Shown here: positions 14,701-59,512 of the stretch, in pieces | Layout: every line of letters starts with the position of its first letter | Numbering within the stretch: the stretch's first letter is position 1 | Assembly (NCBI GenBank): GCA_030390025.1 | Contig: CM059430.1 | Location: forward strand, 72,912,001 to 72,976,000 | DNA from: Squalus acanthias | Lineage: Eukaryota | Direction: 5' to 3' | Length of the DNA: 64,000 bases | Program-made: the position numbers and the translations under genes | Notes under the pieces: model-generated | The model's database searches: none | What the model was told of the DNA's origin: nothing | Seen by the model: only the letters and a program-made list of their open reading frames with translations

Positions 14701-17700
14701 TTCCTGGACGTGATGCTGTGTTCATCCCAGCTTCCTAGCTTCATTAGGACGACCAAAATGAGGACCGGCAGAATCACTCAGCTCCAAACCTTATTTAGGG
14801 AATATGGGAGCGGAACAGCATTGGAGAAATGGCAGCAGCTGCCTGAAAATTAACTCATTATTGCAATGCGTGTGGCATCAAGGAACCTTCACAATCTGCT
14901 GGTCATTTGGGACAAGTGGAACACCCTTCCGTTGGTGATCAATCATCACAGCCGTGCAGGATTTCCTTACAGAAGTATCCTTAGCCTAACTGTCTTCAGC
15001 TGCTCCATCAATGACCTCCATTCCACAATACGTTCACGAGCGTGGCTGTTAACTGATAATTATAGTGTTCAGCTCCAGTGGCACCTCCTCAGATAATGAA
15101 TCAGCCTACAGCAGCAGTAACTTTCAAAAGGGAATTGGATACATACTTGAAAACGATATGCATTGCGGGACGATGCGAAAAACCAGGAGAGTCAAACTAT
15201 TTGGCTAGCTCTTTCAAAGACCCGACACTGGCACGATGGGCTAAATGACTTCTTCCTGTGCTGTATGATTATATTCTGATTCTATGATACCAGCCCACGA
15301 CAGGACATATACAACATTTAATGTGAGTTGACCATCGTGCCAAGCAATGGCCAGCTCATTGATCAAGGAAAAGCACGTCAATTTCCCCAATGCTTCAACA
15401 CATTATCTATATCCTGGGCGTTAATCTTTCGTTAGCAACCTAACCGACCTTGCCATATAAACAACCTTAACTACTGGAGCAGCGCAGAAGCTGAAAGTTT
15501 TGCAATGAATATAATCTATCAACCTGTGAGCCTCTTTCTGAGATCCACAAGGCTCAAGTTTGGAATTTGGAAACATAGGCATTATTCGCCCGGATGGTTG
15601 CTTCTGAACGCTCAAGTATCTCCGCGCTATCCAGAACACCAACAGTTTGTTTGAATCGCACCCATTTCACAGGAATCCATGGGTGCAGTACGTACTATGT
15701 ACATGATGCATTGAAACAATCAATTAATCAACAACATACCCAGAGTTGTCAATGTAAAAAAAATAATGTGGAAAGCTTTGACAAGCATTGATCCAAAGTA
15801 AAATTGTTCCTCCCAAGAATGCTACACTTACCAGATGCCATCTCTTAAATTACTCATATGCTGAAGTTTTTGGATTAATCTATTTTAAGGTAAATGTGGG
15901 TTGATGCAACTTAGTGGTTACCTTTATAAAGCCAACTGCCACCTTGCCTTATCTCGTTCTTGTCTTAACATTATTATCTGAGTAATATAGACTTTTGGTG
16001 TGGCTTTTGTTGGAAAGAATGCAGGACACAAGGGTGTCGCTATCAGAAAGTGTTGCCCAAATAATTTTGCTGACGATTTTTAATCGGCTTATAAAAGCCA
16101 GATTTAAAATAAAGGCCAAAGTGATGTCATACAACAGCAAAGTAATGCGAAGCACAAGTAAATTGTGCTAAGAAAATGCCAAACATTGTGAAGAGTGAAA
16201 AAAACTCAAGATTGACGGCAAAAAACACTGAAGAGCCAGATTATCATTTTAATGATAGGAGAATGCTGATTTGTTAAGCATTAAGCAATTGACTATACAA
16301 GAAGTAAATAACATTCGTCTTTATTTTTTCAAGAAATCAACTTTGTTAATGTTATGGCTGGATAACGATTTATAAAAAAGTGGTGCATTTGTCTGTTGAA
16401 GTATGTTGCCCTGGAAAATAATGGCGGCGGAAGCACAACAAAGATACATACAGGGGCAAGTGTCCAGGCTTACGCGAGCATTCTGCACGACGACAGTGCT
16501 TTCTGCATAGGTGAAAACATTCGGTGATTTTTGGTCCGGTGTAGATGACCTCGGCTGTGACTCTTTGGGTTTTCAAGTGTAACTGAACATAATCTGAACT
16601 CTTGTCCTGAAGTTTAGACTGTTCTGTTTTCCTGGAGCCAGCCAATTCCAGCGCAGCGTATGTCAGATTGTTATTTGTTGTCGCTTGCTTTGCCCATAAA
16701 GCTAGTGTTGGAGAATATCATTAGTACATGGCCAGTGGCAGATTGTTCAGTAGTCAAAGGGCCATTACATTTAAGAAAGTCAACAGGTAATGCGATTTAA
16801 ATAAGATGAGCAAACTAATTTATTTTCTCCGCTACCATGGGTGACCTGTGTTTATTTTTTTCTCAACCTACCTGGGCCTATGAGTGCTCTCCTCTAGATT
16901 CTTAGCACTTGCAGTTTTCATTGACTTGATCAAATCTAATGCAGTGTTAAGGTCCATCTCATTTTCTGATCCCTGCATAGATCACAAAGTAATGCATATT
17001 ATATTGTTTACTCATTATCTTAGTGACACTGCAGTGTATGGATTACACGTTGAACCGAACGGTATGTAATACTAAAACCAGAGTTGGAAAGTGAGGCTTT
17101 AAAATAAATCCACTTGGAGCTTTTTTATCTCTCAATAATTTTATACTTTGTCATTAGGGCACTATATTATGTTTTACTCTCTCAATTTGGACTATAGTCA
17201 TGTTATAACTTGTGGTTGTTAAACAAGTTACTGCTTAGTAAGCCCTATGTGTGATAGCACAAAGGCCTAATGATACCTAAATCACTTGAGGTGTTTTCCT
17301 CTTACATGTGCACGCGTGTTTGAAAATAACTTTTTATGTGTTTGCTGATTACATTAGCATTATATATTTTGAACAATTTCAATTACATGTGAACAAAAAC
17401 GCAGTAAATACCTTTAGGAGATATATTGAATTGAGAATTGTCTCGCTGAAATATGAAATAAATATTTACTCTAAATTTTAAAGGATTAATGCTTTCCCTT
17501 AAGCAGCGAACTGATGTATTTCAGCCCAGCGGATTAATTGCATCTATGAAAGTATTTCATGCTTAATCTCACAGCCAATTTCTATTTGCTTAACAAATGT
17601 ATGAAAAAAACCGACCAGACCTTCTGGATATGGTGGTTGTTCGATGACATCCCCTGTTCCTGCTAATGAAAGGACTTGAAAATATGAACAATAATGATTT

Positions 17701-17907
17701 AGTGATATGGTTCTCCATGATTCCAAAACCATTTCATCTAGGCTTAATACTGTCCAACTTTATGTTCAGGAGCACATTCTTGAACTTGTTGGATATCTCT
17801 ATTTGTTCAAGCTTTACCGTCAAATTACCATCTCCAGATTTTGTTAATTTATTGAGTCCTAATCGAGTCAATTTCCATGGGGTCAAGAGGCTTCCTACTA
17901 TGAGCAT

Positions 17908-18657
17908 GGCCCTGAAATTGCGGATTCTGTGACGGCATACTCTCAGAGTATACCATTGTATTCCTTTTGAAATGCCCCGTAAGTTCCGGATTTCCTCAAG
18001 TGCTTGCATATATCTGGAAATTGAGGCCTGTCAATGTGCACGATGACAGGCCATATGCGGGAAACCCGAAAAAGCAATCGCTGGCGCAGAGTTCAGCAAT
18101 TTACCCAGCGATCGGCCGGCAATTGCCCACTTAGGTCTTACAGTTGATGAAAGCAGGCATGGTCCTGTTTGTATTAGCGTAAGGAGATATCTAACGCTTA
18201 AATTAAACATTTTTAATATCCAAAATTATGCACATACACTGTATTAAATGAATTTATGCAAATATTAGACTGTATTACAGTTTTAAATACAGGTGAAATT
18301 ATCAAAAAATATTTTTTTACCGAGGTTGGTGTAATGAAGGTACTTTTGAAAAAAATTACAAATTTGAACATTGTATGATTATTTGATTTGGGAATTCCAT
18401 TGCATATCATCAGTGGATTCCCTTCGTAAATGATTGGAATTTTATTCTGTTTATGGATTGGAGGACTGGGCCCACATGATCGCAGATACGCTTCCGATGC
18501 GCCTCCATCCTGGGATCTGTTGATTATTACTCTGCCCTCTGCCTCGAGGCCTGAGACCACAACACTTCTCAGTCAGGGCACCAGGAGATACTTTCGTAAT
18601 TGTTTCATGCGTCGGAGGCATACTCCGGAATTATGCTGCTGAATGCATTTTTTAGCC
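17908..18657 (+). mobile_element. Older Harbinger-related MITE, predates the duplication
   Basis: ggccctgaaattgc start with a degraded matching end; subterminal ggcatactc..gagtat dyads; homolog at 49665-50614. Confidence 0.8.
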
Positions 18658-18929
18658 TGTTACTTGACGGGAAAGCACACCACTTTAGACGATGCCGTCA
18701 ACTCGCTTCCGCAAAGGTAATGCACCAGCAGAAATAGGTCAGAGAATTTTAGAAAATAACACGAGAAACATTCTTCGACCCACTCCAGAGAGGTGAAAGA
18801 CAATACGGCCACTTTATTGCTGCGGGACAGATGATTAAACTCAGTGCATAGTTTCTGGTGCTCCATCTCCCTGGGTCCTATCATCAACAGCACAACATGA
18901 CATCCATTTACAAGAGAAAAGAAATAACT

Positions 18930-19335
18930 TCTCATTTATGTAGCGCGTTCTAGGACGTTAAGACATCCCAATGCGCTTCTCTAAAAAAACGTACTTTGGA
19001 TGTTTAATCAATGTTGTAATGTAAGAAAAAGCAGCGGCTAATTGATCACAGATAGGTCGTGCATACAGTCATGCGATAAATAAGCAATTAAATTGTTTTA
19101 CCGATGTACATTGGGGATACATGTTTTGCAGGACACCGATAGATCTTCCAGTCCTCATTAAATATTCCTAATAGATCTTTTACATACACTTCCGCGGGCA
19201 GACGGAGACTGGTTTTCAGTTTTCATCCGAAAGGTCTCCCTCAGTACGGCACTGGGATGTCGGCCTAAATTGTGTGCTTAACTCTCCGACCTCTGATTAT
19301 CAGGTGAAAACGCTACTACTGATCCAAGGCTGACT
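18930..19335 (-). mobile_element. DeuSINE (SacSINE1-like); homolog at ~50885-51290
   Basis: Deu-domain-like tcatccgaaag..ctccctcagtac.gcactggga.tgtc.gccta and an L2-type tail (atttatgtagcgc...catcccaatgcgctt). Confidence 0.65.
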
Positions 19336-19422
19336 TTAACTTATTTCATCCCTACCCTCACATTATCAAGGAAATACTAAAGGACACAATGAAACGGGAC
19401 AATTTCATACCTTTACGTATTT

Positions 19423-20676
19423 GGCCCGAAAATTAAACCTAATACGCGAGAGTACGCACTGTGTACTCTCGCGTATTAGATCCCGAATTGCCGGTTTCCT
19501 GCATGCACTGCAGATGCGCGGGAACAGGCACTTGGTGAATTGAAAAGGGGGCGGTTCCTAAGTGAACCGCGTGCGCACTACAGGCTGTGCGCACGCAGTG
19601 CACTTAGTTTTTTTTTCAGCTTTGAAAGCGCAGGTAAGTGGTGAAGATTTTACACACAAAGAAAGCAGGCGTAGGACCCCCTTTTAACAAGGTAAGTAGT
19701 TAATTAAGTGTTATTTTAAATTTTTTCAACAGGTTTATCATTTTTAGAGACTTTAAAGAAAGGTAAGTTTATTTTTATAACTTTTAATTTTATTTTAAAT
19801 TTTTTCAAAAATTAAATTTTTTGTTTAGAATGGTTAATTTATTTAACTATACTTATTTTATTAATTAGAAGTCGCACAACACCAGGTTATAGTCCAACAG
19901 ATTTATTTAATTTTACAAGCTTTCGGAGCTGTTCGCTCCTTCTTCAGGTAAGGTAGCTGTGAGAGAATCTCCCAGAATTCACTATATAAACACAGGAAAA
20001 ATCTATTCAAATCTTTCCCTACATCAAAGACACACTAAGAGCACAGCCAAGACAATGAGATGTGTCCCAGGGGGTCCAACGTGTCAAAACACATGCTGGC
20101 TGCATATCCTCTCCATTTGTTGTGTTAGTCTTTTTAAAACAAAACCTGGAAAGACCGGCCATGATGTCAAGTCACGTTCTGTATCGTGACATGAACCCGA
20201 TATCGCGATTGAGGCCATCCTCATGAGTGCGGAACTTGGCTATCAGTTTCTGCTCTATGAGTTTGCGCTGTCGTGTATCCCGAAGGCCGCCTTGGAGAAC
20301 GCTTACCCGCAGATCCGAGGCTGAATGCCCCTGACTGCTGAAGTGTTCCCCCTTTTATTAATGTGATGGCTTTTTAAAAATTTAATTGAGGTTTAGCTGT
20401 TCTTTTGGGGTGTGTAGTATTCATAGCTTTGACATCTCTTGCCGTCAAAACTATGAATTAAAGATGGTGTGCTGCCATTGGCTCTAACTGAATCACGTGA
20501 TCCCAGAGCTCGCACGAACTAATTGCGCCTCCGGGTCACGCAAGCACTGCATGGTTCCAACAGAGAGAGCCTTTGAAACTAAAGTTCGTGTGGGCCCGGA
20601 GCAAAAAGGTAGGCACGGAGTGCGATATCGCGGGGAATCCTTACCCCCGCGGGAACCATCCATGTTTAATTTCTGG
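19423..20676 (+). mobile_element. Harbinger-related MITE inserted in the TM exon of the pseudogene
   Basis: ggcccgaaaattaaac...gtttaatttctgg; empty site at ~51375-51385 in unit B; contains a nested Penelope-like fragment. Confidence 0.9.
19866..20352 (-). mobile_element. Penelope-like retroelement 3' fragment nested in a MITE
   Basis: Minus strand encodes ...QKLIAKFRTHEDGLNRDIGFMSRY, resembling a GIY-YIG C-terminus; flanked by the 10-bp duplication ttttattaat (19856-19865 / 20353-20362). Confidence 0.75.
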
Positions 20677-22944
20677 TATTACTGGATATCGCTTCCTCAT
20701 GATTATCAGGAGCAACAGCATTAAGATTGCACCATCCTGCGGATCGATAGACCTGCATGGAGCATTGTGCGTAGCCATCTCCTGTAAAATAAATGTCAAA
20801 AATAAAATTTGAAATTGAACATTTTGAGAAAGTTTTCTGCAGAACCACCTTTCAATGTCGCCTATCATTCTTTTGAACATTTATTTCAATTTCGGGAGTC
20901 ACGCAGCATAAAGAGACGGTTAAACATTTTATTGATCTTCTTATTTTTCCTTTTCCATTTCAAGTCGTTATGATTACTTAACATCTAAAGAGAATTTTAC
21001 TACTGCATTTATAAAATGGAGCACGATTAAACCTCCACCCCTGAGTTATACTCAAGACGATTATCTTTGGACTTTAGGTTTTAGACCACATGTTAACTAG
21101 GAATTAGATATGATAGTTGATTCCTAGATTAGTCACCAATGTTTGGTAAACAAGCTGTGCTGTTTCGAGAATTCAACAGCTTCAGTTTTACTTTTACTAA
21201 GACCAGAATTTTATTTCCAGAATTGTTTAAACTGAAGTTAAATTCTCAAACTACCATGGCGTGATTATCTGTCGAGGCGTCTGGGTTACTATTTCCGTAC
21301 AATAACAATTATATTACATTAACTCAGCTCTCTAATAGAAAACGTTCAGAACAAAGACCCATTCGCCAACAGATCTGGAATAATCTACTTTAATCCATAT
21401 TCTTGTTCCTATGAAGAGTGAAAACCCATCAATGCTCCTTTAAAGGATTGTGGACAAAATTGTGCACATGCCAAATACGGTCCATAATCTTTGGTATCCG
21501 TCTTGGGTCAAATGTTCCTTGCATTTGTTATAATTAGATTTTTACCTACAGTACTGGTTGAAATGAGTCGGAAGTCAGTTGCCGTTTGGACGGTGTGATG
21601 AAATGCCTGGCAGGTATAAATAGTCCCGCTCTTGACAGGCTGTGACTCTTCGAAAAAGCTGGAAACTTCATACAGACCTTTTTCATTTATCTGTAATTGT
21701 GGCGTTTATCCCGGTCTCAACTTTCAAACCATCCTTGTACCAAGTAATATTGATATCATTTGGGTAAAATTCAGCAGTTTTACACACAAGAATCAAAGAA
21801 GCAGATGCATTACGATCAGCCTCATTGCAGTCAATACGCAGTGGGGTTGGGGGAAATGTGGAACAAGATATAGAAGAGATTAGAACTGACTGACCTCTTT
21901 CAGAATGTATGAAGGAGTTCTATTTTCTACCAGATTAAAGTCAATGTGACATTAATACTTTCAAAACATTAAATGGCATGTTCTTTTATAGAAACGTTGG
22001 GTGGATTTTCAACTTGCTTTCTGGGCGGGAAACAGACGATGTTGATCGGCAACTTGGCATCAAGTTGAAAAGCTCTCCCATTAATTAAAGGATTACAATT
22101 TCTACTGAGACATTGGTGAGCTAAACAGGATACCGACGAGATCAATGCTAGAAAGAATATAGATGGAAGATATAAAGGTTTGGAGGATTTTGAGATTATT
22201 GCAACATATATATCTCAATAATTAAGAGCTGGTAGAAAGGGATTCGATGGAGAATATGTTTACAACGCTTCGCATTTTACAGGGCTAAGCCTTTAATTGA
22301 AAAATAGATCATTTCACGATCAAATTGTTTTAATGTTGTTTATAAAATCATATTGAACACCATTCACCTAAACCGGAATATTTTAGAAAGTTGACAGACG
22401 GTTTAAAAACTGTCGAGACAGTTTTACTGAGTTAGAGACTCTTTTGAAGTAATTATTGTGAAGAGTGTTGGAAAGGTTAATGTAAAATACAGATAACACG
22501 TATTTTTAGAACGGCAGTAAGTGAAGAACCATAGGTGGAAGAAACGCAAAGCAGAAGAAAATAGATCAAATGGAAAGTTACTGAGAACTCGCCGTAGAGT
22601 TCCCCGAAGTTTAAGCTAGAGTGCATTAGAGAGAGACGTAACGGTTCGAAAGCAACAATTAATTTGCCATCTAAGGGATAAGCTTATCCGTCATATTCTC
22701 ATTCAAGCGGCAGACTTCCATTTCCTATCCGACTACCTGGATGGTTCACTCCGCAGCAATAAACTCCAGAGTCCGCGGAGCTGACATTCAGGAGCTGAAG
22801 TGAGGACTCTCCTTTCTTCAAAGAAAAAAATCGTTTTCTGCTGTCATTAACTGACTGTAGAAACTCATTTTCTCCCAGTTTCCACCAGTAAACAGTCACA
22901 TCGGAATTATCTTGTAAAAAAGGGAACGCGCAATAGAAAGTAGT

Positions 22945-23686
22945 GGGCCAAAAATTGATCCCGCTGCGCGAGAGTACGCACTGCGTGCTCTCGCGTATTC
23001 TCTCTCCAATTGCCGGTTTTCTGCATGCACTGCGCATGCGCTGAAAACCGGCACTTGGTCTTTGGAAAAGGGGGCGGTTCCTCGGTGCACCGCGTGCGCG
23101 CTACAGGCTGCGCGCACGCTGTGCACTAAGTGCTTTGGACGCGCAGGTAAGGACAGAGGATTTTAGAAACGAAAAAAGGAGGAGTAAGACCCACTTTTAA
23201 CAAGGTAAGTAGTGAATTAAGTATTATATTGAATTTTTTTTAACAGGTATATCTTTTTTAGAGACTTTAAAGACAGGTAAGTTTATTTTTATAACTTTTT
23301 AAAAGATTTTAAATTTTTTCAAAAATTAAATTTTTTATTTAAAATGGTTAATTTATTTAACTATACTTATTTTATTAACGTGATGTTTTTTTTTTTATTT
23401 AATTGAGGATTAGCTGTTATTTTGGGGGTGTGTAAGATTCATAGCTTTCACAGCACGTATGTGAAACTTATGAATGGAAGATGGTGTGCTGCCATTGGCT
23501 CTAACTGAGTCACGTGATCCCACAGCTCGCACGAATTCACTACGCCGGTGGGATACGCAAGCACTGCCCAGCTGATGTCTAGAACATCAAGTTCGTGCGA
23601 GCTGGATCTGAAAAAGCCAACGCGGAGTGAGAGATCGCGCCTGCTCCTTACCCCTGCGGGAACAGAGCGAGATCAATTTCTGGGCC
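22945..23686 (+). mobile_element. Harbinger-related MITE (742 bp) inserted in the V exon of the pseudogene
   Basis: TIRs gggccaaaaattgatc / gatcaatttctgggcc; flanks agt / act versus empty-site aat at 54281-54283. Confidence 0.93.
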
Positions 23687-26600
23687 ACTGTTTCCACCTG
23701 CGATCACGTTGGCATTTTCAGGGGCTTGGATCACACTTAAATGAACACCGGAAATAGCTGTGAGGAAATAAATGCAAACAATAATGAGATATATCGCACA
23801 CACACGGCTTGCTGACAATCATAATCGAATTCTGATAGTAGGGTATATTTGCTGAGGATTAAATTCAATCCTTGTCAATGATATCTGATCCTACAAGCGC
23901 TGTCTATAACGAGTTAATTTTAAACGATGAGATCTGTCGGCGCTGCTGTGTATTTAATGTGCCTTGCTACCACATTTCTATTCTTAAAACTAACCTGATG
24001 TGAAGCGCAGACCACACCAGCACATTTTGAATTGCACATGTCTTCAGGAACAGACAATGATCAGACAATGAACACATCAACTGAGATATGGTTGATCCGA
24101 CGCAGGGTCTAAGATCTTGACATAACTCATTACGAAAGGACTTTCACTGGACTGTGTTTCCTGTTTTATGTTCAATTGACGTGGTAATACATCCTAACAC
24201 CAGATTCACTTTGACAATAGTCTCGTGGCACTGGCCATGGACCTTTCATCAACCATGCAATATAATCCTCATGACTTTCTCTTGCTCAACATCCTTGAAG
24301 CAAAGGCCCCGGCATCATTCAAAGATGCAGTTGCCCCTATCCAAGTGCAACACACTACATTCGTCTAGATTAAATTACATCTACCAGATTCGGTTAATTC
24401 CTCTATTTAATCCAGTTTTTCTGCAGACTTATTTTATTTTATCCACGGTCTTTATATCCGCAGATATGTTCGTGCAATCTACGCACTTGCAGATAACATC
24501 CCCATGCCTTTACCCAAATAATTGATAAATAATGCAATGGTCCTAACGATTAATAACGATCTTCTATGTCCCTGAATAGAGCAGGTTCCTTGTCCTTCCC
24601 AAACCAAAACTTGCATGGAAATCCCACAATACTCAGCCTACCTTAGTAGCCTTTGTACAGGAAAGTATTAAACTCTTTTTTAAAAGTCTAGATATACAAT
24701 ATCAATATGACTGCCTCATCTACCAACTTTGTAAATTCCTTGGAAAAGTGCAACGAAGTTGGTGAGACACGACCTTCTATTTCATAAACCATGTCTGGAT
24801 TCACTAATAAACTCATCCATTCGAATTGATAGTGCAGAGCATCTCTAATAATTGCATAATTTTGAGGTTCTCACTCAGACAATTTTTGAAATTTTGGTAA
24901 GACGAGCCCTCTCACGGTTCCATGGACAGCATCACAGATAACTGTACAATATAACTACTAAATTTATACACAAACAGCTGACATAGCACAGGCCTCATTT
25001 ATTGGAACACACTCGGGAGAATGTCTTCAAGGTCAGCACCCCGACTTCTTTTCCGAGCACAAACTGCAGCAAGGACTACATCCGTATCCAGTTCAACAGG
25101 TTTACTTTTAATATCAGCCTCATGTCGATGTACTGGTAACCCAACATCTTTAAATGTAGTGAAGGCAGTTGTAAAGTAAGTTTTTAAATGTTTTCTCATA
25201 TCCTGGGACTCCGCCTGAATCTGCCCAGAGGATCGTTCAATGGTCAAGTACTTTCCTTGGTAAGCCTATGATATTCAACATAGTTAAAGTTACCTTACTA
25301 TTAATACCACCCCGATACAATCTTCTCCATCCGTGTCTTTATCTCTAATACAGATTCTTACATTTATCCTAATGCTTGAACATTGGAGCTTGTATAAAAT
25401 TGGACCTCTGAGCGAAAAATCGACCAACTATAAACATAAATAACAACAACACATAACCTATAAAACAGAGTTCAGACATCCAACGTCCGCCGTATCTTGC
25501 GATTGACATATTAAAACATGATATTAATAGAAAGGAAAACTCATGGATACACCTGTATAAGCATTCGCGAAGATCAATATCCAGGGAAGCACAATCATAT
25601 TTAGAAATGGAATTGACTGCAGGCTACAGGTAGGCGCCATCCTCTGATGGTTTGGAAATACTGGCTATATTCCGAACATGATTCCAACTGAGAGATGATG
25701 ACGCATGAGTCTAAAACTGCCGTCAGTAACGGAATTTATTTTAAGCGTTCAGAGCTGTGCCCGCAGTTGTGCGTTCATGATGGACTATAAAATATTTAAT
25801 CTGAAAGGCTGTTGCAGCAGTAAATATGTCTTTAAAGAATTAGATCAAACTTTTGCTTAAATTATTTAGCTCGACATCTGCAGTTGTTGAGAAAGTGTAT
25901 AGACTTCAACAAAGTCAACACGACTGGCCGATAATCACACAGCGCGATACGCACTCTTGTGCATGCAACAAACTTTAAGCCAAAATTATAGCACACCACC
26001 ACCACTACAGCGGACCGCGGCCTCAGACTTGCACCTCCATTGTAATACACAGAAGAAGCGCAACTTTTCCTGCCGGCTCTGCTTGGCATTGCGTACAATG
26101 AACGTAGACATTTGTGAGTTTGTGTTTGGCGTTTTCCATCTGCCTGTTTAACAGCTGAAGATATAATTCAGACAATATACTTCATAAAACAGTCGTTGAT
26201 CAAATTCAGTTTGTAGACCAGAAACACCAATGTAAGAAAGATAATAATATACAGAACGAGTTTGGACTTTGCAGACATTTTGTGAGAAAGATCCAGTTCA
26301 CACGGAAATAATAAGTATGAAGGTGGGAGAATTAATCTGCTGTTCAACTGAAACCATCTATCTGTTTTTCCATATATATTGAGGCATTCTTTAGAATAAT
26401 TCCAGCTAATAACCATAAGTGTTTTTAGATATTATTACGTTGCAATCAAAAGGCGCATGTTTAGAGTTGGAACTGCCTACACGGAAATGTACTAATGAAC
26501 CATTTCCGTTCTTTACCACGAGACAGCAATTCGTTTATGATTTAGTCTATCAAATAGAGCAGAAACCGCATTTCAGGTGAGGATAAAAAGGTTCATCTGC

Positions 26601-47535: not shown

Positions 47536-47709
47536 TTAGGTGATTTTTGTTCCGGTGTAGATGGCTTCGGCTGTTACTCTTTGGGTTTTGAAGTGTAACT
47601 GAGCATAATCTGAACTCTTGTCCTGAAGTTTAGGCTTATCTTTTCTCTGGGAGCCAGCCAATTCCAGCGCAGCGTATGTCAGATTGTTATCTGATTTCGC
47701 TTGCCTTGT
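47536..47709 (-). CDS. Exon 7, terminal cytoplasmic exon with LTYAAL, SDYAQL and AIYTGT motifs
   Basis: TRQAKSDNNLTYAALELAGSQRKDKPKLQDKSSDYAQLHFKTQRVTAEAIYTGTKIT*; acceptor ctttatag; TAA at 47538-47536. Confidence 0.88.
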   Translation of the reverse strand, partial: TRQAKSDNNLTYAALELAGSQRKDKPKLQDKSSDYAQLHFKTQRVTAEAIYTGTKIT

Positions 47710-50700
47710 CTATAAAGCGAGTGTTAAAGAATATCATTAGTACATGGCCGTTTGTTCAGTTGTGAAAGGAGACATTACATTTAAGAAAGTCAACAGCTTT
47801 AAATAAGATAAGCAAAATAATATATTTACTCCGTCACAATGGGTGACCTGTGTGTTTCTTTCAGCCTACCTGGGCGTACACAGACCTCTCCTCTTGATAC
47901 TTAGCGCTTGCAGTTTTCGTTGACTTGGTCAAATCTAATGCAGTGTAAAGCACCATCTCATTTGCTGATCCCTGCATAGATCACAAAGTAATGCATATTA
48001 TATTGTTTACTCATTATTTTAGTGACACTGCAGTGTATGGATTACACGTTGAACCGAACGGTCTGTAATTCTAAAACCCGAGCTGGAATGTGAAGCATTG
48101 GACAAAAAATACGGAACTTGCCGGGTGAGTACGCGCTGTGTACTCACCCGTAAGGCCTGCTGAAGTGCCGGTTTCCTGCATGCACTGCGCATGCGCGGCA
48201 ACCCGGATCTTCCGGTCTCGTGAAGGGAGAGCTTGAGAGGTGAACCGCTTGAGCGGTAGAGGCTGCGCGCACGCAGCTAACTTAGGTTTTTTTTTTGCGT
48301 TTCTCCGGGAGGGTAAGTATTGAAGAGGCTGCATTTTTAAAAAGGATGCGCAAGACCCGTTTTCAACAAGTTAAGTGGTTAATTAATTACAATATAAAAA
48401 TTTTTCCAACAGGTTAATCTTTTTTAGATACTTTAAAGAAAGGTAAGTTTATTTTTAGCACTGTTAAAAAGTATTTTAACTTTTTCAAAAATTTAAATTT
48501 TGTTTAAAGTAGCTAATTTATTTAACATATAGTTATTTAAAAAATGTGATTGTTTTTTTAAAATGTATTTGAAGTTTAGGTGTTGTTTTGGGGCCGATTT
48601 CGGGGTCTTCCTGTCAAATCTATGAATTAAAGCTGGTCTGCTGTCATTGGCTCTCCATGTCCCACGTGATCCCAGGGAATGCATCGCACTAACTACGCCC
48701 CTGGGATACACAAGCACTGCGCGCTGGCAGTTGGGGGAGGCCCAGGAGCCGAAGTCCCCGTGGGCCCAGAGGTCAACGGCAGGCGCGGTAGGTAGGTGCG
48801 CGTGGGATCCTTGCACCCACGGTAAGCCAGGGTGCCTAATTTCTGGGCCATTATAATAAATCCACATGGAGCTTTTGTTATCTGTCAATAATTTTATACT
48901 GTATCATTAGGACACTGTATTATATTTTACTCTTGCAATGTGGACTATAGTCATGTTATAAATTATGGTTGTTACACAAGTTACTGCTTAGTAAGCCCCA
49001 TGTGTGAAAGCACAAAGGCCTAAGATACCTAAATTACTTGAGGTGTTTTCCCCTTACATGTGCACGTGTGTTTGTAAATTACATTGTATTTTATTATTAC
49101 TGATTCCATTAACATTATATATTTTGGAAACAATTTCAATAATATATGAACAAACGCAGTAAATACCTTTAGGAGATACATTTAATTTAGAATTGTCTCG
49201 CTGAAATCTTAAATAAATATTTACTCAGAATTTTAAATGGCTAATGATTTCCCTTAAGTAGCGAAGTGATGTATTTCAGGCCAGCGGATTAACTGCATCT
49301 ATGAAAGTATTTCGTGCTTAATCTGACTACCAATTTCTATTTCCATAACAAATGGATGAAAATAACCTACCAGACCTTCGGGATGTGAGGGTTGCTCCAT
49401 CGAATCCCCTGTTCCTGGTAATGAATGGACTTGAAAATTTGAAGATTAATTATTTGCTTATATCGCACTCCATGATTCAAAAACCATTTCATGTAGACTT
49501 AATACACAGTCCAAACTTATGTTCAGTAACACAATCAAGAAATTGTTGGATATCTCTATTTGTTCAAGCTTTACTGTTAAATTACCATCTCCAGATTATG
49601 TTAATTATTTGAATCCTACTGAAGTCAAGTTCCACGGGGTCAAGAGGCTTCCTGCTTTGGCCATGGCCCTGAAATTGCGTTGTCTGTGAAGGCATACTCT
49701 CAGAGTACACCATTGTATTCCTTTTGAAATGCCCCGTAAATTCCGGATTTCCTCATGAGCTTATCTAAAATCTGGAATTTAAGAACTGTCAATGTACACG
49801 TTGATAGGCCATATGTGGGAAATCCGAAAAAGCAATCCATGGCAGATTTCAGCTAGTTACCCAGCGACTGGCCAGCAACTTTATCGCCGGTCCTTTATTG
49901 TCGCTGGTTCAAAATCCTGCAAATCCCTACCGAACAGCACTGGGGAGTGCCTTCAAAACACGGACTGCAGCGGTTCAAGAAGGAGGCTCACCACCACCTT
50001 CTCAAGCGCAATTACAGATGGGCAATAAATGCTCGCCTTGCCAGCGATGCCCACATCACATAAAAACTAATTAAAAACATTGCCCACATAGGTCTTACAG
50101 TTGTTGCATGCAGGCGTAGGGCCCGTTTGCATCAGCGTAAGGAGATAGCTAAGGCTGAAAATAAACATTTTTCATATCCAAAATTATGCACATACACTGT
50201 ATTAAATGAGTTTATTCAAATATTAGACTGCATTACAGTTTTAAATACGTATATAATTAACAAAAAATAATGTTTTTACCGAGGTTGGTGTAATGAAGCT
50301 AGTTTTGAATAAAATTCCATCTTTGTACATTGTATGGTTATTAGATTTGGGAATTCCATTGCATATCATTAGGGGATTCCGTTCTAAATTATTGGAAAGT
50401 AATTCTATTTATGTATTGGAGGACTGGACCCACGTGATCCTAGATAAGCTTCAGATCCGCCTGTATTTAGGGATCTGTGGACCATTACGCTGCACTCCGC
50501 CTCGAGGCCTGCGATCACAACTTTTCGCAGCCTGGGCACCTGGAGGTACTTTCGTAATTGTTTCATGGGTTGGAGGCATACCGTGCAATTATGCTTCTGA
50601 CGGCAATTTTAGCCTGTTACTTGACGGTAAAGCACACCACTTTAGACACTGCTCTCAACTCACTTCCACAAAAGTATTGCACCAGCAGAAAGAGGTCAGA

Positions 50701-53700
50701 GAATTTTAGATCCAAAACGAGAAACTTTCTCCTACCCACTCCAGAGAGGTGAAAGGCAATATGGCCACTTTACTGCTGCGGGACAGATTATTAAACTCAA
50801 CGCATTGGTTCTAGTGCCCCATCTCCCCGGCTCCTATCATCAACAGCACAACATGTCATCCATTTGCAAGAGCGAAGAAACAACTTCTCATTTATCTAGC
50901 GCGTTCCAGGACGTTAGGACATCGCAATGCGCTTCTCAAACGAAACGTACTTTGGAAGTTTAATCAATGTTGTAATGTAAGGAAACGCGGTGGCTAATTG
51001 GGCACAGACAGGTCCCACATGCAGTAATGCGTTAAATAAGCAATTACATTATTTTACCGATGTAAATTAGGGATAAATGCTTTGCAGGACCCCGAGAGAC
51101 CTTCCAGCCCTCCTTAAATAGTGCCAAGATAAATTTTATATCCACCTCAGCGGCCAGACGGAGACTGGTTTTAAGCTTTTATCCGAAAGCTCTCCCTCAT
51201 TATGGCACTGGGGTGTCGGCCTAGATTATGTGCTTAACTCTCCGACCTCTGATTAGCAGGTGAGAATGCTACTACTGATCCAAGGCTGACATTAACTTAC
51301 TGCATCCCTACCCTCACATCATCAATGAAATACTAAAGGACACAATGAAACGGGACAATTTCATACCTTTACATCTTATTAATGGACATCGCTTCCTAAT
51401 GATTATCACGAGCAACAGAATGAAGATTCCTCCTCCTGCGGATCCATAGACTTGTATGTACCATTGTGCGTTGCCAGCTCCTGTAAAATGTATGTCAAAA
51501 TAAAATTTGAAGTAATACATTGTGAGAAAGTATTCTCCAGTCCCACCCTTCAAAGTCGCCAACCTTTCTTTTGAACAGTTATTTCAACTTCCGAGAATAC
51601 CGCAGCATAAAAAGAAGGTTAAACATTTTATTGACCTTCTTATTTTTCCTTTTCCATTACAAATCGTTATGATTACTTAACATCTGAAGAGAATTTTATT
51701 ACTGCAATTATAAAACGGACCACGATTTAACCTACCCCCCTGAGTAATATTTAAGACGGTTATCCTTGGACTTTAGTTTTAATACCCCATGTTAACTAGG
51801 AATTAGATATGAAAGTTGATTCCTAGATTAGACCCAGTGTTTGGTGAACAAGTTCTGCTGTTTCGACAATCCAACAGCTTCAGGTTTACTTTTACTGAAT
51901 CCAGCATTTTATTTCCAGAATTGTTTAAACTGAAGTATAATTTTCAAACTACCATGGCGTGATCATTAGTCCAGGCGTCTTGCTTACTATTTCCGTACCA
52001 TCACAATTATATTACAATACCTCAGCTCTCTAATAAAACAAAGTTCAGTACAAAGACCCATTTGCCAACAGACCTGGAATAATCTACTTAAATCCATATT
52101 CTTGTTCCTATGAAGAGTGATAACCAATCAATGCTACTTTAAAGGACTGTGGACAAAATTGCGCAAATGCCAAATACGATCCATAATCTTTGGTATCCGT
52201 CTTGGTTCAGATGTTCCTTGCTTTTGTTATAATTAGATGTTTACCTCCAGTACTGGTTGAAATGAATCGGAAGTCAGTTGCCGTTTGGACGGTGAGATGA
52301 CTTGCCTGGCAGATATAAATAGTCCCGCTCTTGACAGGCTGCGACTCTTCCAAAAAACTGGAAACTTCATACAGACCTTTTTCATTTATCTGTATAACGG
52401 CGTTTATCCCGGTCTCAACTTTCACACCATCCTTATACCAAGTAATATTGATATCATTTGGGTAAAATTCAGCAGTTTTACACACAAGAATCAAAGAAGC
52501 AGATGCATTACGATCAGCCTCATTGCAGTCAATACGCAGTGGGGTTGGGGGAACTGTGGAACAAGATACAGAAGATATTAGAACTGACTGAGCTCTTTCA
52601 GAATGTATGAAGTAATTCTATTTTCTACCAGATTAAAGACAATGTGACATTAATACTTTCCAAACATTAAATGGCATGTTCATTTATAGAAACGTTAGGT
52701 GGATTTTCAACTTGCAATCTGGGCGGGAAACAGACGATGTTGATCAGCAACTCGGCATCAAGTTGAACAGCTATCCCATTAATTAACGGATTACAATTTC
52801 TACTGAGACGTTGGTGAGCTAAACATGATACCGTCAAGATCAATGCTAGAAATAATATAGATGGAAGATATAACGGTTTGGAGGGTTTTGAGATTATTGC
52901 AACACATATATATCTCAATATAACTCATAATTAAGAGCAGGTAGAAGGGGATTCGATGTATAATATGGTTTACAACACTAGGCATTTTACAGGGCTAAGC
53001 TTTTAATTGAAAAAAGAGATCGTTTCACGATCAAATTGTTTTAATGTTGTTTACAAAATCATATTGAGCACCATTCACCTAAACAAGAATATTTTAGAAA
53101 GTTGACAGACGGTTTAATAACTGTCGAGACAGTTTTACTGAGTCAGAGACTCTTTTGAAGTAAATATTGTCAACATTGTTGGAAAGGTTAATTTAAAATA
53201 CAGATAACACGTAGTTTAAGAACGGCTGTTAGTGAAGAACCATAGCTGGAGGAAACGCAAAGCAGAAGAAAATAGATCAAATGGAAAGTTACTGAGAACT
53301 CGCCGTAGAGTGCACCCGAAGTTTAAACCAGAGTGCTTCAGAGAGAGATATAACGGTTCGACACCAACAATTAACTTGCCATCTAAGGGAAGAGCTTATT
53401 CGTCATATTCTCATTCAAGCGGCAGATTTACCAATCAAAGTCAAACAGTCGTCCTCGCTAAAATAAACTGTGCTCAATTATAACCAACAAATTATGTTAC
53501 ATCGTGATTGTGAATGATGTTTATTGCTTGTTGATTTAGCTTGTCTACGCTAAATATTAAGAATTCATTCGTAATGATATTAATGCATCTTCAATGTTGA
53601 ACCTCATGTTCACCACTAGCTGCAATTTAGTGGAAGTAATTACGTAAGTTAAGCAGTGGCTAACCTCTTTCACGTTCAATTATTGGTCGCGTTCTTAATC

Positions 53701-56215
53701 ACGTGTTTAAATGTCTCTTTACCGAACGTGTTCGTTCCCAAACATTAATTGAACCGAATTGTGTACAAATAAAAGGTAATCGACCTGTAACGTTAACTCT
53801 CTTTCTCTCTCCACGGATGCTGCCTGGCCTGCTGAGTTTTTCCAGCGTTTTCTGTTGCTATTGTGTATAAATAAAGCAAGGTATTGAATAGGAATTTCAT
53901 TGTAAACTCCAAAAGGCTTAAAACAAACGCTTGGCGGCCCCAAACATGAATGACGATAAAAACAATTATTGCACCGTGTTTGTTTTGTTTGCTTTAAACA
54001 TTTAGTGTAATAGTTTCAGGTGCAAATTACCGTAGATGAGAAGCTTTGACCCAGTTCCATTTCCCATCCGACTACCCGGATGTTTCACTCCGCAGCAATA
54101 AACTCCGGAGTCCGTGGCGCTGACATTCAGGAGCTGAAGGGAGGCCTCTCCTTTCTTCAAAGGAATAAATCGTTTTCTGCTGTCATTAACTGACTTTAGA
54201 AACTCATTTTCTCCCAGTTTCCACCAGTAAACAGTCACATCGCAATTATCTTGTAAAAAAGGGAACGCGCAATAGAAAGTAATGTTTCCACCTGCGATCA
54301 CGATGGCGTTTTCAGGGGCTTGGATCACACTTAACTGAACACCGGAAACAGCTGTGAGGAAATAAATGCAAATAATAATGAGAGATATCGCACACACACA
54401 GCTTGCTGACAATAATCATCGACTTCTGATAGTAGGGTATATTTGCTGAGGATTAAATTCAATCCTTGTCAACGATATCTGATACTACAAGCGCTGTCTA
54501 TAAAGAGTTCATTTTAAACGATGAGTTCTGTCGGCGCTGCTTTGTATTTAACGTGCCTTGCTTCCACATTTCTATTAAAACTTACCTGATGTGAAGCGCA
54601 GACCACACCAGTACATTTTGAATTGCACATGTCTTCACAAGCAGACAATTATCAGACAGTGAACACGCCAACTGAGATATGGTTGATGCGACGCCGGGAC
54701 TAAGATCTTGACATAAAACATAAAGAAAGGACTTTCACTGGACTGTGTTTCTTGTTTTATGTTCCATTGGCGTGGTAATACATCCTAACACCACGTTCAC
54801 TTTGACAATAGTCTGGTGGCACTGGCCATGGACCTTCCATCAATCATGCAATATAATCCTCCTGTCTTTCTCTAGCTGAAAATCCTTGTGCAAGGGACCC
54901 GGCATTATTCAATGATGGAGTTGCCCCTAACCAAGTGCAGCACACTACAATCGTCTATATTAAATTATATCTACCAGATTCGGTTAATTCCTCTATTTAA
55001 TCCAGTTTTGTCGGCAATCTTATTTTATTTTATCCATGGTCTTTATATCCGCAGATATGATCCTGCAATCTACGCACTTGCAGATAACATCCTCATAACT
55101 TCACCCATATAATTGATAATAATGCAATGATCCTAACGATTAATAACTGTCTTGTGTGTCGCTGAATAGAATATGTTCCTTGTCCAACCCAACCCAAATG
55201 CTGCTTGCAAATCCCACAATGATCAACCTATCTTAGTAGCCTTCTGTGCAGAACTCTACAAACCTCATTTTTAGTAGTCTAGATATACAATATTAATATG
55301 ATTGCCTCAAATACCAACTTTGTAAATTCTTGGGCAAAAGTGCAACGAAGTTGGTGAGACACGACCTTCCATTTCATAAACCATGTCTGGATTCCCTATT
55401 AAACTCATCCATTCGAATTGATAGTACAGCGCATCTCTAATAATTGTATAGTTCCGAGGTTCTCACTTAGCCCATGTATGGAATTTTGGGAATTCGTGGC
55501 CTCCTCACGGGTCCATGGGGAGCAGCACAGGCACAATATAACTACTAAATTTATATACAAATGGCTGACATAGCACCGGCCACATTTACTGGAACACACT
55601 CGGGAGAATGTCTTCAAGGTCAGCACACCGAGCTTTTTTACGAGCACTAACTGCAGCAAGGACTACACACGTATCCAGTTCAACAGGTTTACTTTTAACT
55701 TCAGCCTCATGTTGTCGTATTGGTAAACCAGCATCTTTGAATGTAGTGAAGGCGGATGCAAAGTAAGCTTTTAAAACTTTTGCCGTATCCTGGGACTCCG
55801 CCTGAAGCTGCCCAGATGACCGTTCAATGATCCAGTACTTTCTCTGGTGAGCCTGTGATGTTCAACATAGTTAAAAATACCACCCGGTAAAATATTCTCC
55901 ATCCCTGTCTTTCTCGCTAATCATACAGATTCATACATTTATCCTAATACCTGAACCTTGGGGCTTGTATAACTTTGGACCTCTGGGCGAAAAAGTGATC
56001 AACAATAACCAGAAATAACTCCAACACATACCATATACAACATAATTCAGATTTACAGCGTCCTCCGTGTCTTGCTTTTGATATATTAAAACATGATATG
56101 AATAGAAAGGAAAACTCATAGATATACCTGTATAAGCAATCGCGGAGATAAATATCCAGGGAAACACAATCATATTTAGAAATGAAATTGACTGCAGGCT
56201 ACAGGTAGGCGCCAT
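47536..56215 (-). CDS. Intact spliced IgSF receptor gene (unit B), 7 exons, 383 aa: leader - V(J-like) - C1 - TM - ITIM-bearing tail; SIRP-like / VJ-C1 inhibitory receptor
   Basis: Hand-spliced exons 56215-56128, 54351-54031, 52553-52245, 51480-51367, 49414-49371, 47971-47870, 47709-47536. All introns are GT-AG with compatible phases (1,1,1,1,0,0). Total 1152 nt, no internal stop, ends TAA. Confidence 0.85.
47870..47971 (-). CDS. Exon 6, cytoplasmic exon with VLYTAL and SVYAQ tyrosine motifs
   Basis: GSANEMVLYTALDLTKSTKTASAKYQEERSVYAQ; acceptor ctatgcag, donor gtaggc; 102 nt, phase 0-0. Confidence 0.85.
48100..48849 (+). mobile_element. Harbinger-related MITE in intron 5 of the intact gene, unit-B specific
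   Basis: TSD ATT/ATT; end aatttctgggcc; empty site at ~17098 in unit A; same subfamily as the 2590 copy. Confidence 0.92.
49371..49414 (-). CDS. Exon 5, 44-nt cytoplasmic linker exon (GTGDSMEQPSHPEGL)
   Basis: Acceptor ttaccag, donor gtaggt. Supplies the phase 1-to-0 change the frame needs; same length in unit A (17616-17659). Other small exons cannot be excluded. Confidence 0.65.
49665..50614 (+). mobile_element. Older MITE in intron 4 with a ~200-bp nested LINE 3' fragment (~49880-50078)
   Basis: Homolog of 17908-18657; the extra segment is the reverse complement of 33240-33440. Confidence 0.8.
51367..51480 (-). CDS. Exon 4, transmembrane exon (GAGNAQWYIQVYGSAGGGIFILLLVIIIRKRCPLIRCK)
   Basis: Hydrophobic stretch followed by an RKR stop-transfer; acceptor ttttacag, donor gtatga; 114 nt. 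Confidence 0.85.
52245..52553 (-). CDS. Exon 3, Ig C1-set domain (LVCKTAEFYPNDINITWYKDG...YEVSSFL...YICQASH)
   Basis: C1 hallmarks C-x4-FYP-x2-I-x-I-x-W and Y-x-C-x3-H. Acceptor ttccacag, donor gtaaac, 309 nt, phase 1-1. Confidence 0.93.
54031..54351 (-). CDS. Exon 2, Ig V-set domain with J-like G strand (...FYC...YWW...DSGVYCC...GNGTGSKLLIY)
   Basis: ORF 54002..54412 contains the B-strand Cys, C-strand Trp, D-x-G-x-Y-x-C and a G-x-G-T motif. Acceptor ttcctcacag, donor gtaatt, 321 nt, phase 1-1. Confidence 0.93.
56128..56215 (-). CDS. Exon 1, signal peptide MAPTCSLQSISFLNMIVFPWIFISAIAYT
   Basis: ATG at 56215, hydrophobic stretch, CAG|GTATAT phase-1 donor matching the V exon phase; homologous exon in unit A. 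Confidence 0.8.
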
Positions 56216-58663: not shown

Positions 58664-59405
58664 GGGCCAAAAATTCATCCCGCGACGCGAGAGTACGCAC
58701 TGCGTACTCTCGCGTATTGTCTCTCCAATTGCCGGTTTTCTGCATGCCCTGCGCATGCGCTGAAAACCGGCACTTGGTCTTTTGAAAAGGGGGCGGTTCC
58801 TCGGTGCATCACGTGCGCGCTACAGGCTGCACGCACGCTGTGCACTTCGTGCTTTGGACGCGCAGGTAAGTACGGAAGATTTTAGAAATGGAAAAAGGAG
58901 GAGTAAGACCCACTTTTAACAAGGTAAGTAGTGAATTAAGTATTTTTTTGAATTTTTTTTAATAGGTATATCTTTTTTAGAGACTTTAAAGACAGGTAAG
59001 TTTATTTTTATAACTTTTTAAAAGATTTTAAATTTTTTCAAAAATTAAATTTTTTATTTAAAATGGTTAATTTATTTAACTATACTTATTTTATTAATGT
59101 GATGGTTTTTTTAAAATTTAATTGAGGTTTAGCTGTTATTTTGGGGGATGTAAGATTCATAGATTTCACCGCACGTAGTGAAACTTATGAATGGAAGATG
59201 GTGTGCTGCCATTGGCTCTAACTGAGTCACGTGATCCCACAGCTCGCACGAATTCACTACGCCGGTGGGATACGCAAGCACTGCCCAGCTGATGTCTGGA
59301 ACATCAAGTTCGTGCGAGCTGGATCTGAAAAAGCACAAGCGGAGTGAGAGAGTCCGCGGGGAAGCCTTACCCCCGCGGGAACAGAGCGAGATCAATTTCT
59401 GGGCC
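58664..59405 (+). mobile_element. Harbinger-related MITE (742 bp) nested in the Myb ORF of the autonomous-type element
   Basis: TIRs gggccaaaaattcatc / gatcaatttctgggcc; TSD ATT/ATT; near-identical to 22945-23686. Confidence 0.93.
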
Positions 59406-59512
59406 ATTACTTTGACTCCCGCAGAACCGCCCTTACCTGCTCCCAATGCAGAAACAGTGCAGGCCCATGAGACAGCAGCTCCACCAGTCCTGATGCAAGC
59501 AAACGTTGTTTT

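What the first reader, a model, noticed from the sequence alone, without database searches (positions are those of the whole stretch)
47536..56215. Intact non-rearranging V(J)-C1 receptor with an inhibitory tail
Seen: one exon encodes a V domain with a J-like G strand (GNGTGSKL), followed by a single C1-set exon, an uncharged TM and ITIM-like motifs, with no RSS. Known: C1-set domains are largely confined to Ig/TCR, MHC, beta2m, tapasin, B7-H6 and SIRPs. Mammalian SIRP-alpha is V-C1-C1, NKp30 is a lone VJ domain with a charged TM, and germline-joined VJ-C1 genes are discussed as models for the pre-RAG antigen-receptor ancestor. Inference: this is a TCR/light-chain-shaped ectodomain on a SIRP-alpha-like tail, possibly an uncharacterised cartilaginous-fish multigene family.
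Basis: partly seen in the sequence, partly recalled or inferred. Interest (0 to 1): 0.8.

Follow-up and report, generated by a model that had tools for sequence, protein, structure and literature searches.

The report
Shark SIRP-like inhibitory receptor family
This is an intact, non-rearranging two-domain immune-receptor gene (one antibody-like V domain, one C1 domain) from a large gene family of sharks, rays and chimaeras, and its tail closely matches the mammalian "don't-eat-me" receptor SIRP-alpha, so it likely acts as an inhibitory receptor and may push the origin of SIRP-type receptors back to the first jawed vertebrates.

Summary
The gene has seven GT-AG exons on the minus strand (56215-47536) and an open 383-aa frame: leader, V with a GxG G-strand, C1, uncharged TM, and a tail with three ITIM matches. 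No RSS lies near it. The Heptranchias RefSeq model XP_067853494.1 ('SHPS-1-like') matches all seven exons (260/377 identical).

It belongs to a chondrichthyan-wide family: 101 of 141 session members are V-C1, 56 carry ITIMs, and a few short-tailed ones have a TM-edge Arg. A decayed tandem copy lies about 31 kb away.

Outside the family, only SIRP-alpha tails match the tail well (31-35 bits against 8 or less). The C1 scores best with SIRP C1 domains. The V is not SIRP-like: it is shorter, lacks the YYC[VI]K motif, and has a glycan sequon where Ig/TCR have F/W. Trees make the family monophyletic but do not resolve its sister group.

Best reading: a SIRP-related, probably paired-receptor family, not an antigen-receptor relic in particular. 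I found no description in 10 literature searches, but the key papers (PRARP, VJC1 and SIRP evolution) were not readable. Expression, ligand and synteny are not shown.

The parts
56128..56215 (-). Exon 1, leader (signal peptide), phase-1 donor; the last leader residues sit in the V exon
   Evidence: matches the N-terminus of orthologue P0003
54031..54351 (-). Exon 2, V-set domain with GxG G-strand (NGTGSKLLI) in the same exon; short C-to-F region
   Evidence: Pfam V-set; AlphaFold model pLDDT 86.8; motif tally
52245..52553 (-). Exon 3, single C1-set domain
   Evidence: Pfam C1-set 45.8 bits; FYP motif and 13-residue Cys-Trp spacing (sequence; PMC2785349)
51367..51480 (-). Exon 4, uncharged glycine-rich transmembrane segment with basic stop-transfer and two juxtamembrane Cys
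   Evidence: helix in the orthologue model
49371..49414 (-). Exon 5, first cytoplasmic exon (phase 1 to 0)
   Evidence: splice-site scan; colinear with P0003
47870..47971 (-). Exon 6, cytoplasmic, Y301 ITIM (VLYTAL) and Y324
47536..47709 (-). Exon 7 coding part: ITIM LTYAAL (Y338), SDYAQL (Y361), Y377, stop; polyA-like hexamers at 47267, 47109 and 47100
16508..25640 (-). Tandem paralogue, pseudogene. It has an insertion of about 740 bp inside the V exon and has lost the V 3' end and donor, the C1 acceptor and the last acceptor. It has frameshifts in the C1, TM and cyt2 exons.
   Evidence: self-BLAST; exon alignments

Best explanation
The gene encodes a 383-aa single-pass V-C1 protein with a four-tyrosine SIRP-alpha-type tail, and it likely works as an inhibitory cell-surface receptor of a SIRP-related, probably paired-receptor family of cartilaginous fish.

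Shown: the exon structure, open frame, domains, tail motifs, family membership, and birth-and-death duplication in the window.

Inferred from SIRP-alpha biology (PMC12975943, PMC2785349): the V domain binds a self or pathogen surface ligand in trans. Src-family kinases then phosphorylate the two motif pairs (Y301/Y324 and Y338/Y361, each 23 residues apart). These would recruit the tandem SH2 domains of SHP-1/SHP-2 and damp phagocyte or lymphocyte activation.

Also inferred: short-tailed relatives with a closely related V and an Arg at the outer TM edge would be the activating partners. The ligand is unknown. CD47 is not favoured, because the V lacks SIRP V features.
For: 1. Orthologue: the Heptranchias model is colinear over all 7 exons, 260/377 identical.

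2. Family: 46 hits, every species name shown being a shark, ray or chimaera. 16 hits share one Heterodontus contig length, 8 one Heptranchias and 5 one Callorhinchus; some are isoforms. The 7 further family representatives I named were all chondrichthyan. 101 of 141 session members are V-C1 and 56 of 141 have an ITIM after a TM (the set includes isoforms and fragments).

3. Tail: the family tail HMM scores 5 mammal and bird SIRP-alpha tails at 31-35 bits and every other non-family protein among the session proteins at 8.3 or less. Tyrosine spacing is 23/14/23 against 24/17/26 in SIRP-alpha. With the four motifs held in place and linkers shuffled, scores fall from 38-43 to 17-20 bits, 0 of 300 reaching the observed value in each of 3 tails.

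4. hhalign of the family against bat SIRP-alpha is colinear from V through TM to the fourth tyrosine, probability 99.5.

5. The best non-family C1 matches are lungfish (61.7 bits) and coelacanth (53.6 bits) SIRP-like C1s. SIRP-alpha (2wng) is the third PDB hit. SIRP-alpha clusters rank 1-2 in the ESM Atlas at 0.96, tied with an unnamed V/C1 cluster.

6. A coelacanth SIRP model is also V-C1 and one skate member is V-C1-C1, so C1 number is labile.

7. Two short-tailed members (P0009 with the Arg, P0004 with Gln there) are the sister pair of this gene and its orthologue in the V tree, 94/76.
Against: 1. The V domain is not SIRP-like. YYC[VI]K is in 0 of 111 family V domains against 14 of 14 session SIRPs. 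The C-to-F span is mostly 33-36 residues against 41-45 in the four SIRPs measured. SIRP V domains score only 12-37 bits on the family V profile, against up to 57 for reptile multi-V ITIM receptors. Foldseek ranks NKp30 first, by a small margin. In the V tree SIRP groups with IgH-type V (89/83), not with the family.

2. There is one C1, not two.

3. The C1 tree does not join the family to SIRP d2 or d3. A ray B7-like C1 scores 60.9 bits, about as high as the SIRP C1s. AU tests reject none of the sister groups tried (p 0.285-0.485).

4. The tail controls were few: no Siglec, LILR or NITR tails were in hand, and CD33-like clusters score 0.94 in the Atlas.

5. No function, ligand or synteny was tested.
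Confidence: 0.6

Rival explanations
1. It is an inhibitory receptor of a separate VJ-C1 lineage, for example the chondrichthyan expansion of PRARP/VJC1 or an NKp30/CD28-like V lineage. Its SIRP-alpha-like tail would come from exon shuffling or convergence on SHP-2 binding.
For: The V domain lacks SIRP features and is closer to NKp30, PD-1, VNAR and CD79b structures and to reptile multi-V ITIM receptors. The family is monophyletic and apart from SIRP in both trees. The L, V, C1 and TM exons are joined by phase-1 introns, which permits shuffling. PRARP is listed as a non-rearranging VJ gene (PMC10751288, PMC11599192, passages). That it is V-C1 with ITIM/ITSM in non-avian vertebrates is recalled; the paper was not read.
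Against: Similarity to SIRP-alpha covers the linkers and the juxtamembrane region, beyond the motifs. The C1 scores best with SIRP-like C1s. No non-chondrichthyan V-C1-ITIM protein other than SIRPs was recognised among the best 150 of 6864 hits, though a distant one could fall below the 149-bit list cut.
Confidence: 0.28
2. It is a direct relic of the pre-RAG antigen receptor, sister to Ig/TCR chains and pairing like a light chain or TCR chain.
For: Single-exon V with GxG, a split leader and C1, and no RSS. Light chains fill the Foldseek list for the full model, though they are over-represented in the PDB. AU tests do not reject family+IgV (p 0.353) or family+IgH/UrIg-type C1 (p 0.286).
Against: The J-motif F/W is replaced, mostly by N in a glycosylation sequon. 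No interchain Cys follows the C1. An ITIM tail and uncharged TM are unlike Ig/TCR. UrIg2, with structure and linkage to the antigen-receptor complex, is a stronger published candidate (PMC12227049, sections 7 and 12). GxG is widespread.
Confidence: 0.07
3. This copy is not expressed, or is starting to decay like its tandem neighbour.
For: The neighbouring copy is a pseudogene. This copy has three extracellular Cys (66, 115, 146) that the orthologue lacks.
Against: The frame is open over seven exons with canonical splice sites and 69% identity to the orthologue, while the neighbour at about 87% DNA identity carries several lesions.
Confidence: 0.05

Closest known systems
SIRP-alpha / SIRP family (SHPS-1; PDB 2wng; PMC2785349, PMC12975943)
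   Same: V with GxG plus C1-set, single TM, four-tyrosine tail in two pairs with like spacing and linker similarity, clustered multigene family with inhibitory and short-tailed members.
   Different: One C1 instead of two; V shorter and without YYC[VI]K; candidate activating members have an Arg at the outer TM edge instead of the DAP12-binding basic residue (Lys, recalled); CD47 binding untested; not grouped with SIRP in trees.
RefSeq models in cartilaginous fish, e.g. Heptranchias perlo XP_067853494.1 'tyrosine-protein phosphatase non-receptor type substrate 1-like'
   Same: Likely orthologue: same seven-exon product, 260/377 identical.
   Different: Automatic names only. Paralogues are variously called tapasin-related, NCR3LG1-like, Ig lambda-like, CD276 homolog or MHC class II beta-like, and are not recognised as one family.
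PRARP / VJC1 genes (Fu et al. 2019; Ohta et al. 2019)
   Same: Non-rearranging VJ genes (passages in PMC10751288 and PMC11599192); V-C1 with inhibitory motifs in non-avian vertebrates (recalled).
   Different: Recalled as one or two genes per genome with two tyrosine motifs. No sequence was available here, so orthology is untested.
NKp30 / NCR3
   Same: Single-exon VJ domain; top Foldseek hit for the V model (3noi, E 7.5e-9, TM 0.72, 22% identity).
   Different: NKp30 has no C1, has a charged TM and is MHC-linked. The structural margin over VNAR, PD-1 and TCR is small.
UrIg / UrIg2 (PMC12227049)
   Same: Elasmobranch non-rearranging VJ exon plus C1; UrIg2 (9dmx) is the second PDB hit of the family profile, on three matched stretches.
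   Different: UrIg2 has nine C1 domains and forms disulfide-linked Fc-like homodimers in the antigen-receptor complex. This gene has one C1, an ITIM tail and dozens of paralogues.

Membership tests
SIRP | N-terminal V-set followed by C1-set domain(s), single TM | tested here: met
   Pfam; C1 hallmarks
SIRP | Three-domain V-C1-C1 ectodomain | tested here: not met
   One C1 exon. 101 of 141 members are V-C1 and 1 is V-C1-C1. A coelacanth SIRP model is also V-C1.
SIRP | SIRP-type V domain (YYC[VI]K, a signature taken from the session's SIRPs; longer C-F span) | tested here: not met
   0 of 111 family V domains against 14 of 14 SIRPs
SIRP | SIRP-alpha four-tyrosine tail in two pairs | tested here: met
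SIRP | Groups with SIRPs in V and C1 trees | tested here: inconclusive
   Not in the ML trees; AU p 0.285 (V) and 0.387 (C1)
SIRP | Synteny with the SIRP locus; CD47 binding; SHP-1/2 recruitment | not testable with these tools
   No genome is held, and no unrelated host gene was seen in the window
Rearranging Ig/TCR | Split V-(D)-J segments with RSS | tested here: not met
   The G strand is in the V exon; no RSS near the gene
Rearranging Ig/TCR, germline-joined IgL | F/W-G-x-G-T J motif and interchain Cys after C1 | tested here: not met
   F/W in 0 of 91 motifs, N in 76; no Cys between C1 and TM
NKp30/NCR3 | V-only ectodomain with charged TM | tested here: not met
   C1 exon present and TM uncharged
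UrIg/UrIg2 | VJ followed by three or more C1 domains forming Fc-like dimers | tested here: not met
   Single C1; UrIg2 features from PMC12227049
PRARP/VJC1 | Orthology by sequence and synteny | not testable with these tools
   No named PRARP sequence was obtained. Ohta 2019 is not held; Fu 2019 was seen only as a reference title.
B7-H6/NCR3LG1 and tapasin-related (RefSeq labels) | Groups with B7-like V and C1 domains | tested here: inconclusive
   Apart from B7-like rows in both trees, but AU p 0.485 for C1. The B7-like rows were labelled by eye, and no tapasin row was available.

The most novel reading that the evidence does not exclude
This is an undescribed chondrichthyan-wide cluster of germline VJ-C1 paired receptors that is the sister lineage of bony-vertebrate SIRPs. 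It would date SIRP-alpha-type inhibitory signalling to the jawed-vertebrate ancestor and keep the simplest V-C1 layout. It would diversify its V domains by gene birth and death (median 41% identity among horn-shark members), and use Arg-coupled rather than DAP12-coupled activating partners. That would make it a living, RAG-free repertoire built from antigen-receptor parts.
Probability: 0.35. Interest if true: 0.72.

Novelty: new variant of a known kind. Interest (0 to 1): 0.5.

Why it matters
A 2022 review lists SIRP clusters in mammals, birds and lizards and says their evolutionary origin is unknown (PMC9652883, passage). The SIRP-alpha structure paper notes that one cannot tell whether SIRPs came from an antigen-receptor precursor or from an antigen receptor (PMC2785349, passage).

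A family present in sharks, rays and chimaeras, with a SIRP-alpha tail on a two-domain VJ-C1 ectodomain, gives the missing outgroup. It makes that question testable by synteny and trees. It would also supply cartilaginous fish with a large candidate paired-receptor system that is now hidden under at least six automatic names.

It does not by itself identify the RAG-invaded gene; UrIg2 is a stronger candidate for that.

Tried and rejected
RNA evidence. No listed holder is on record as RNA. Three Logan contig sets gave two low-depth contigs over the last exon (47411-47711, depth 2.3, 9 differences; 47519-47688, depth 3.4, 1 difference) and no listed exon-exon joint. The first contig stops aligning at the predicted acceptor with 8 unaligned letters, which fits splicing. 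Five of its six listed differences match the pseudogene copy by my reading, so it may come from another paralogue or allele. I did not count this as evidence of expression. The other exons had no cover.

Homodimer prediction of the orthologue ectodomain: no answer, score 0.01.

Reciprocal search with coelacanth SIRP: 13 hits among 1997 candidates, none chondrichthyan. The search is word-limited, so this is weak.

SIRP was not among the rows shown in the structure lists for the V model or in the V-profile PDB list; absence there is inconclusive. Single-exon PDB searches were dominated by multi-domain proteins.

Trees of about 100 columns left deep forks open. They lacked TCR, IgL, NKp30, PRARP, NITR and tapasin rows. 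Outgroup labels IgH, B7-like, MHC, IgD and UrIg-like were mostly assigned by eye. 20-22 family rows were picked from 111-141. The V tree lost 11 intended outgroup rows whose V my pattern did not find.

My first splice scan was too strict and returned nothing; it was repeated. No whole genome is held, so synteny was not tested.

Earlier scan notes: nothing by sequence, words or place. The genome-wide look-up showed 8 of 75 notes, all on retroviral Env and unrelated.

Rejected labels: Ig lambda chain, MHC class II beta, NKp30 orthologue, UrIg.
Full report
Observation. Translation and splice-site scoring give seven exons: leader 56215-56128, V 54351-54031, C1 52553-52245, TM 51480-51367, and cytoplasmic exons 49414-49371, 47971-47870 and 47709-47536. 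All six introns are GT-AG, and the 1152-nt CDS gives 383 aa with no internal stop. Pfam calls V-set and C1-set above their cut-offs. The GxG G-strand is inside the V exon. No RSS-like site was found near the gene; the 4 hits in the window lie at 615, 2630, 8950 and 36082. The TM is uncharged. Three of the tail tyrosines fit the ITIM consensus.

Independent check of the model. The Heptranchias perlo RefSeq protein XP_067853494.1 aligns end to end, 260 of 377 identical, including both small cytoplasmic exons that I predicted from splice signals alone. It is a predicted model, and I did not see its RNA support. Direct RNA evidence for this species was not obtained.

Surroundings. The window is a tandem duplication: 1-29157 matches 35472-64000 in blocks of about 85-94% identity. 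The second copy (about 16.5-25.6 kb) is a pseudogene. It has an insertion of about 740 bp in V, a deletion of the V end and donor, lost C1 and last-exon acceptors, and frameshifts. The rest appears to be repeats, including a DDE_Tnp_4 fragment. I saw no unrelated host gene, and no genome is held, so synteny is open.

Family. The orthologue finds 46 proteins, and every species name shown is a shark, ray or chimaera. Many share one contig length per species: 16 Heterodontus, 8 Heptranchias and 5 Callorhinchus entries, some of them isoforms. Equal contig length indicates one chromosome; tight clustering is inferred. An HMM search of 1.84 billion representatives listed the best 150 of 6864 hits. 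Family members are separated from outsiders by a clear score gap, and the 7 family representatives I named were all chondrichthyan. Among 141 session members, with isoforms and fragments, 101 are V-C1, 25 C-only, 10 V-only and 5 other. 56 have an ITIM after a TM, 20 a long tail without a strict ITIM, 26 a short tail, and 39 no clear TM. A pattern flagged 4 short-tailed members with Arg just outside the hydrophobic core; three more show it by eye. That placement resembles FcR-gamma-coupled receptors (recalled). V identity among horn-shark members has a median of 41% over 78 pairs. RefSeq names scatter over SHPS-1-like, tapasin-related, NCR3LG1-like, Ig lambda-like, CD276 homolog and MHC class II beta-like.

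What points to SIRP. The family tail profile matches five SIRP-alpha tails at 31-35 bits and nothing else outside the family above 8.3, including ITIM tails of reptile multi-V receptors and a coelacanth V-only SIRP. Spacing is 23/14/23 against 24/17/26. Keeping the four motifs in place and shuffling the linkers halves the score, 0 of 300 shuffles reaching the observed value in each of three tails. Direct alignment of this gene's tail to bat SIRP-alpha scored 71 against 32.6 +- 6.0 in 1000 shuffles and 41 for two reptile tails. hhalign is colinear from V to the last tyrosine, with one C1's length gapped out. The top outside C1 matches are lungfish and coelacanth SIRP-like domains. SIRP-alpha is third among PDB hits and first in the Atlas.

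What points away. The V lacks the YYC[VI]K motif seen in all 14 session SIRPs, is shorter between strands C and F, and has N at the J-motif F/W position. Its model (pLDDT 86.8) is closest to NKp30, VNAR, PD-1 and CD79b, with small margins. The best outside sequence matches are turtle and viper multi-V ITIM receptors. ML trees make the family one clade (V 94/80, C1 92/99) but leave its sister open. AU tests reject neither SIRP, nor Ig/UrIg, nor B7-like, nor reptile multi-V as sister. Because V-C1-C1 and the V signature were tested and not met, I do not file it as a SIRP member. It works like SIRP-alpha by anatomy (about 0.85) and is probably SIRP-related by descent (about 0.6).

The antigen-receptor reading. 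The F/W that Ig and TCR use for V-V pairing (recalled) is absent and usually replaced by a glycan sequon. No interchain Cys follows C1. The predicted two-domain shape aligns as a unit with B7-H6, PD-L2 and Neph1/Rst (Z 15-16, rmsd 3-5 A) rather than with bent Fab chains (rmsd 8-13 A) (pTM 0.57, so the angle is uncertain). GxG is common to CD79, NITR, SIRP, CD8, NKp30, PRARP and CTLA4 (PMC11599192). SIRPs were already proposed as relatives of the antigen-receptor precursor on V-C1 grounds (PMC2785349), and UrIg2 is the leading published candidate for RAG invasion (PMC12227049). So the layout is a known kind. What appears new is a large, chondrichthyan-wide, two-domain family with a SIRP-alpha tail.

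Mechanism. Shown: structure of the gene and protein, family and duplication. Inferred from SIRP-alpha (PMC12975943; PMC2785349): ligand binding by V, tyrosine phosphorylation by Src-family kinases, SHP-1/SHP-2 recruitment through the two 23-residue-spaced pairs, and inhibition of the cell. Inferred: Arg-class members act as activating partners with related V domains. Cell type and ligand are unknown.

Literature seen. Passages: PMC10751288, PMC9652883, PMC11599192, PMC12975943, PMC6795676 (no mention of SIRP), PMC3716694, PMC2785349. For PMC12227049: abstract, section 7 and part 1 of section 12 (24, 26, 27). No supplements were read. Ten searches listed no paper on this family, judged from titles and abstract starts. 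Ohta 2019, Dornburg & Yoder 2022 and the UrIg paper are not held. Fu 2019 was seen only as a title, and Kinlein 2021 is recalled. A prior description there is quite possible.

Verdict. Real, intact gene; new variant of a known kind; interest 0.5.

Noticed in passing
window 1-29157 vs 35472-64000: Tandem duplication at about 85-94% identity carrying an intact and a decayed copy of the receptor gene: birth-and-death in progress.
   Followed up: yes
window 22944-23687 and 58663-59406: Element of about 740 bp with inverted ends, inserted in the V exon of the pseudogene copy. A 94% identical copy lies at 58.7-59.4 kb, with older relatives near 2.6-3.3, 13.4-14.1, 19.4-20.7 and 48.1-48.8 kb.
   Followed up: partly
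window 60598-61227 (-), 40639-41193, 4968-5456; 429-923 and 35896-36390 (+): Harbinger-type transposase fragments (DDE_Tnp_4 hit at 60.6-61.2 kb). ORFs at 429-923 and 35896-36390 look Myb/SANT-like by eye; no Pfam hit for the one tested.
   Followed up: partly
window about 7.8-11.5 kb, 28.2-28.7 kb, 37.6-40.2 kb: Decayed LINE-like (CR1/L2-type by eye) endonuclease and reverse-transcriptase fragments.
   Followed up: no
proteins P0133, P0165, P0173, P0108, P0129: Multi-V receptors with GxG G-strands (the three named are turtle and viper, with ITIM-like tails), auto-named FCRL5-like, pIgR-like or otk-like. They are the best non-chondrichthyan match to the family V domain (up to 57 bits). Their identity is unexplained.
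   Followed up: partly
proteins P0005-P0009, P0033, P0061: Short-tailed family members with Arg at the outer TM edge; candidate activating receptors. The Chiloscyllium/Hemiscyllium counterpart (P0004 cluster) has Gln there.
   Followed up: partly
proteins P0060, P0111, P0126, P0137, P0143, P0146, P0164: V-TM-tail models without the C1 domain, consistent with phase-1 exon skipping, as with D1-only SIRP isoforms.
   Followed up: no
proteins P0191, P0203, P0210, P0168, P0188: Coelacanth and lungfish SIRP models with one to four C1 domains or none, including a V-C1 form with a TM Lys. SIRPs thus extend beyond the mammals, birds and lizards listed in PMC9652883.
   Followed up: partly
window 47869: If the 160-nt last intron were retained, the fourth motif would read SVYAQV, a full ITIM, followed by a stop within two codons: a possible short isoform.
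   Followed up: no
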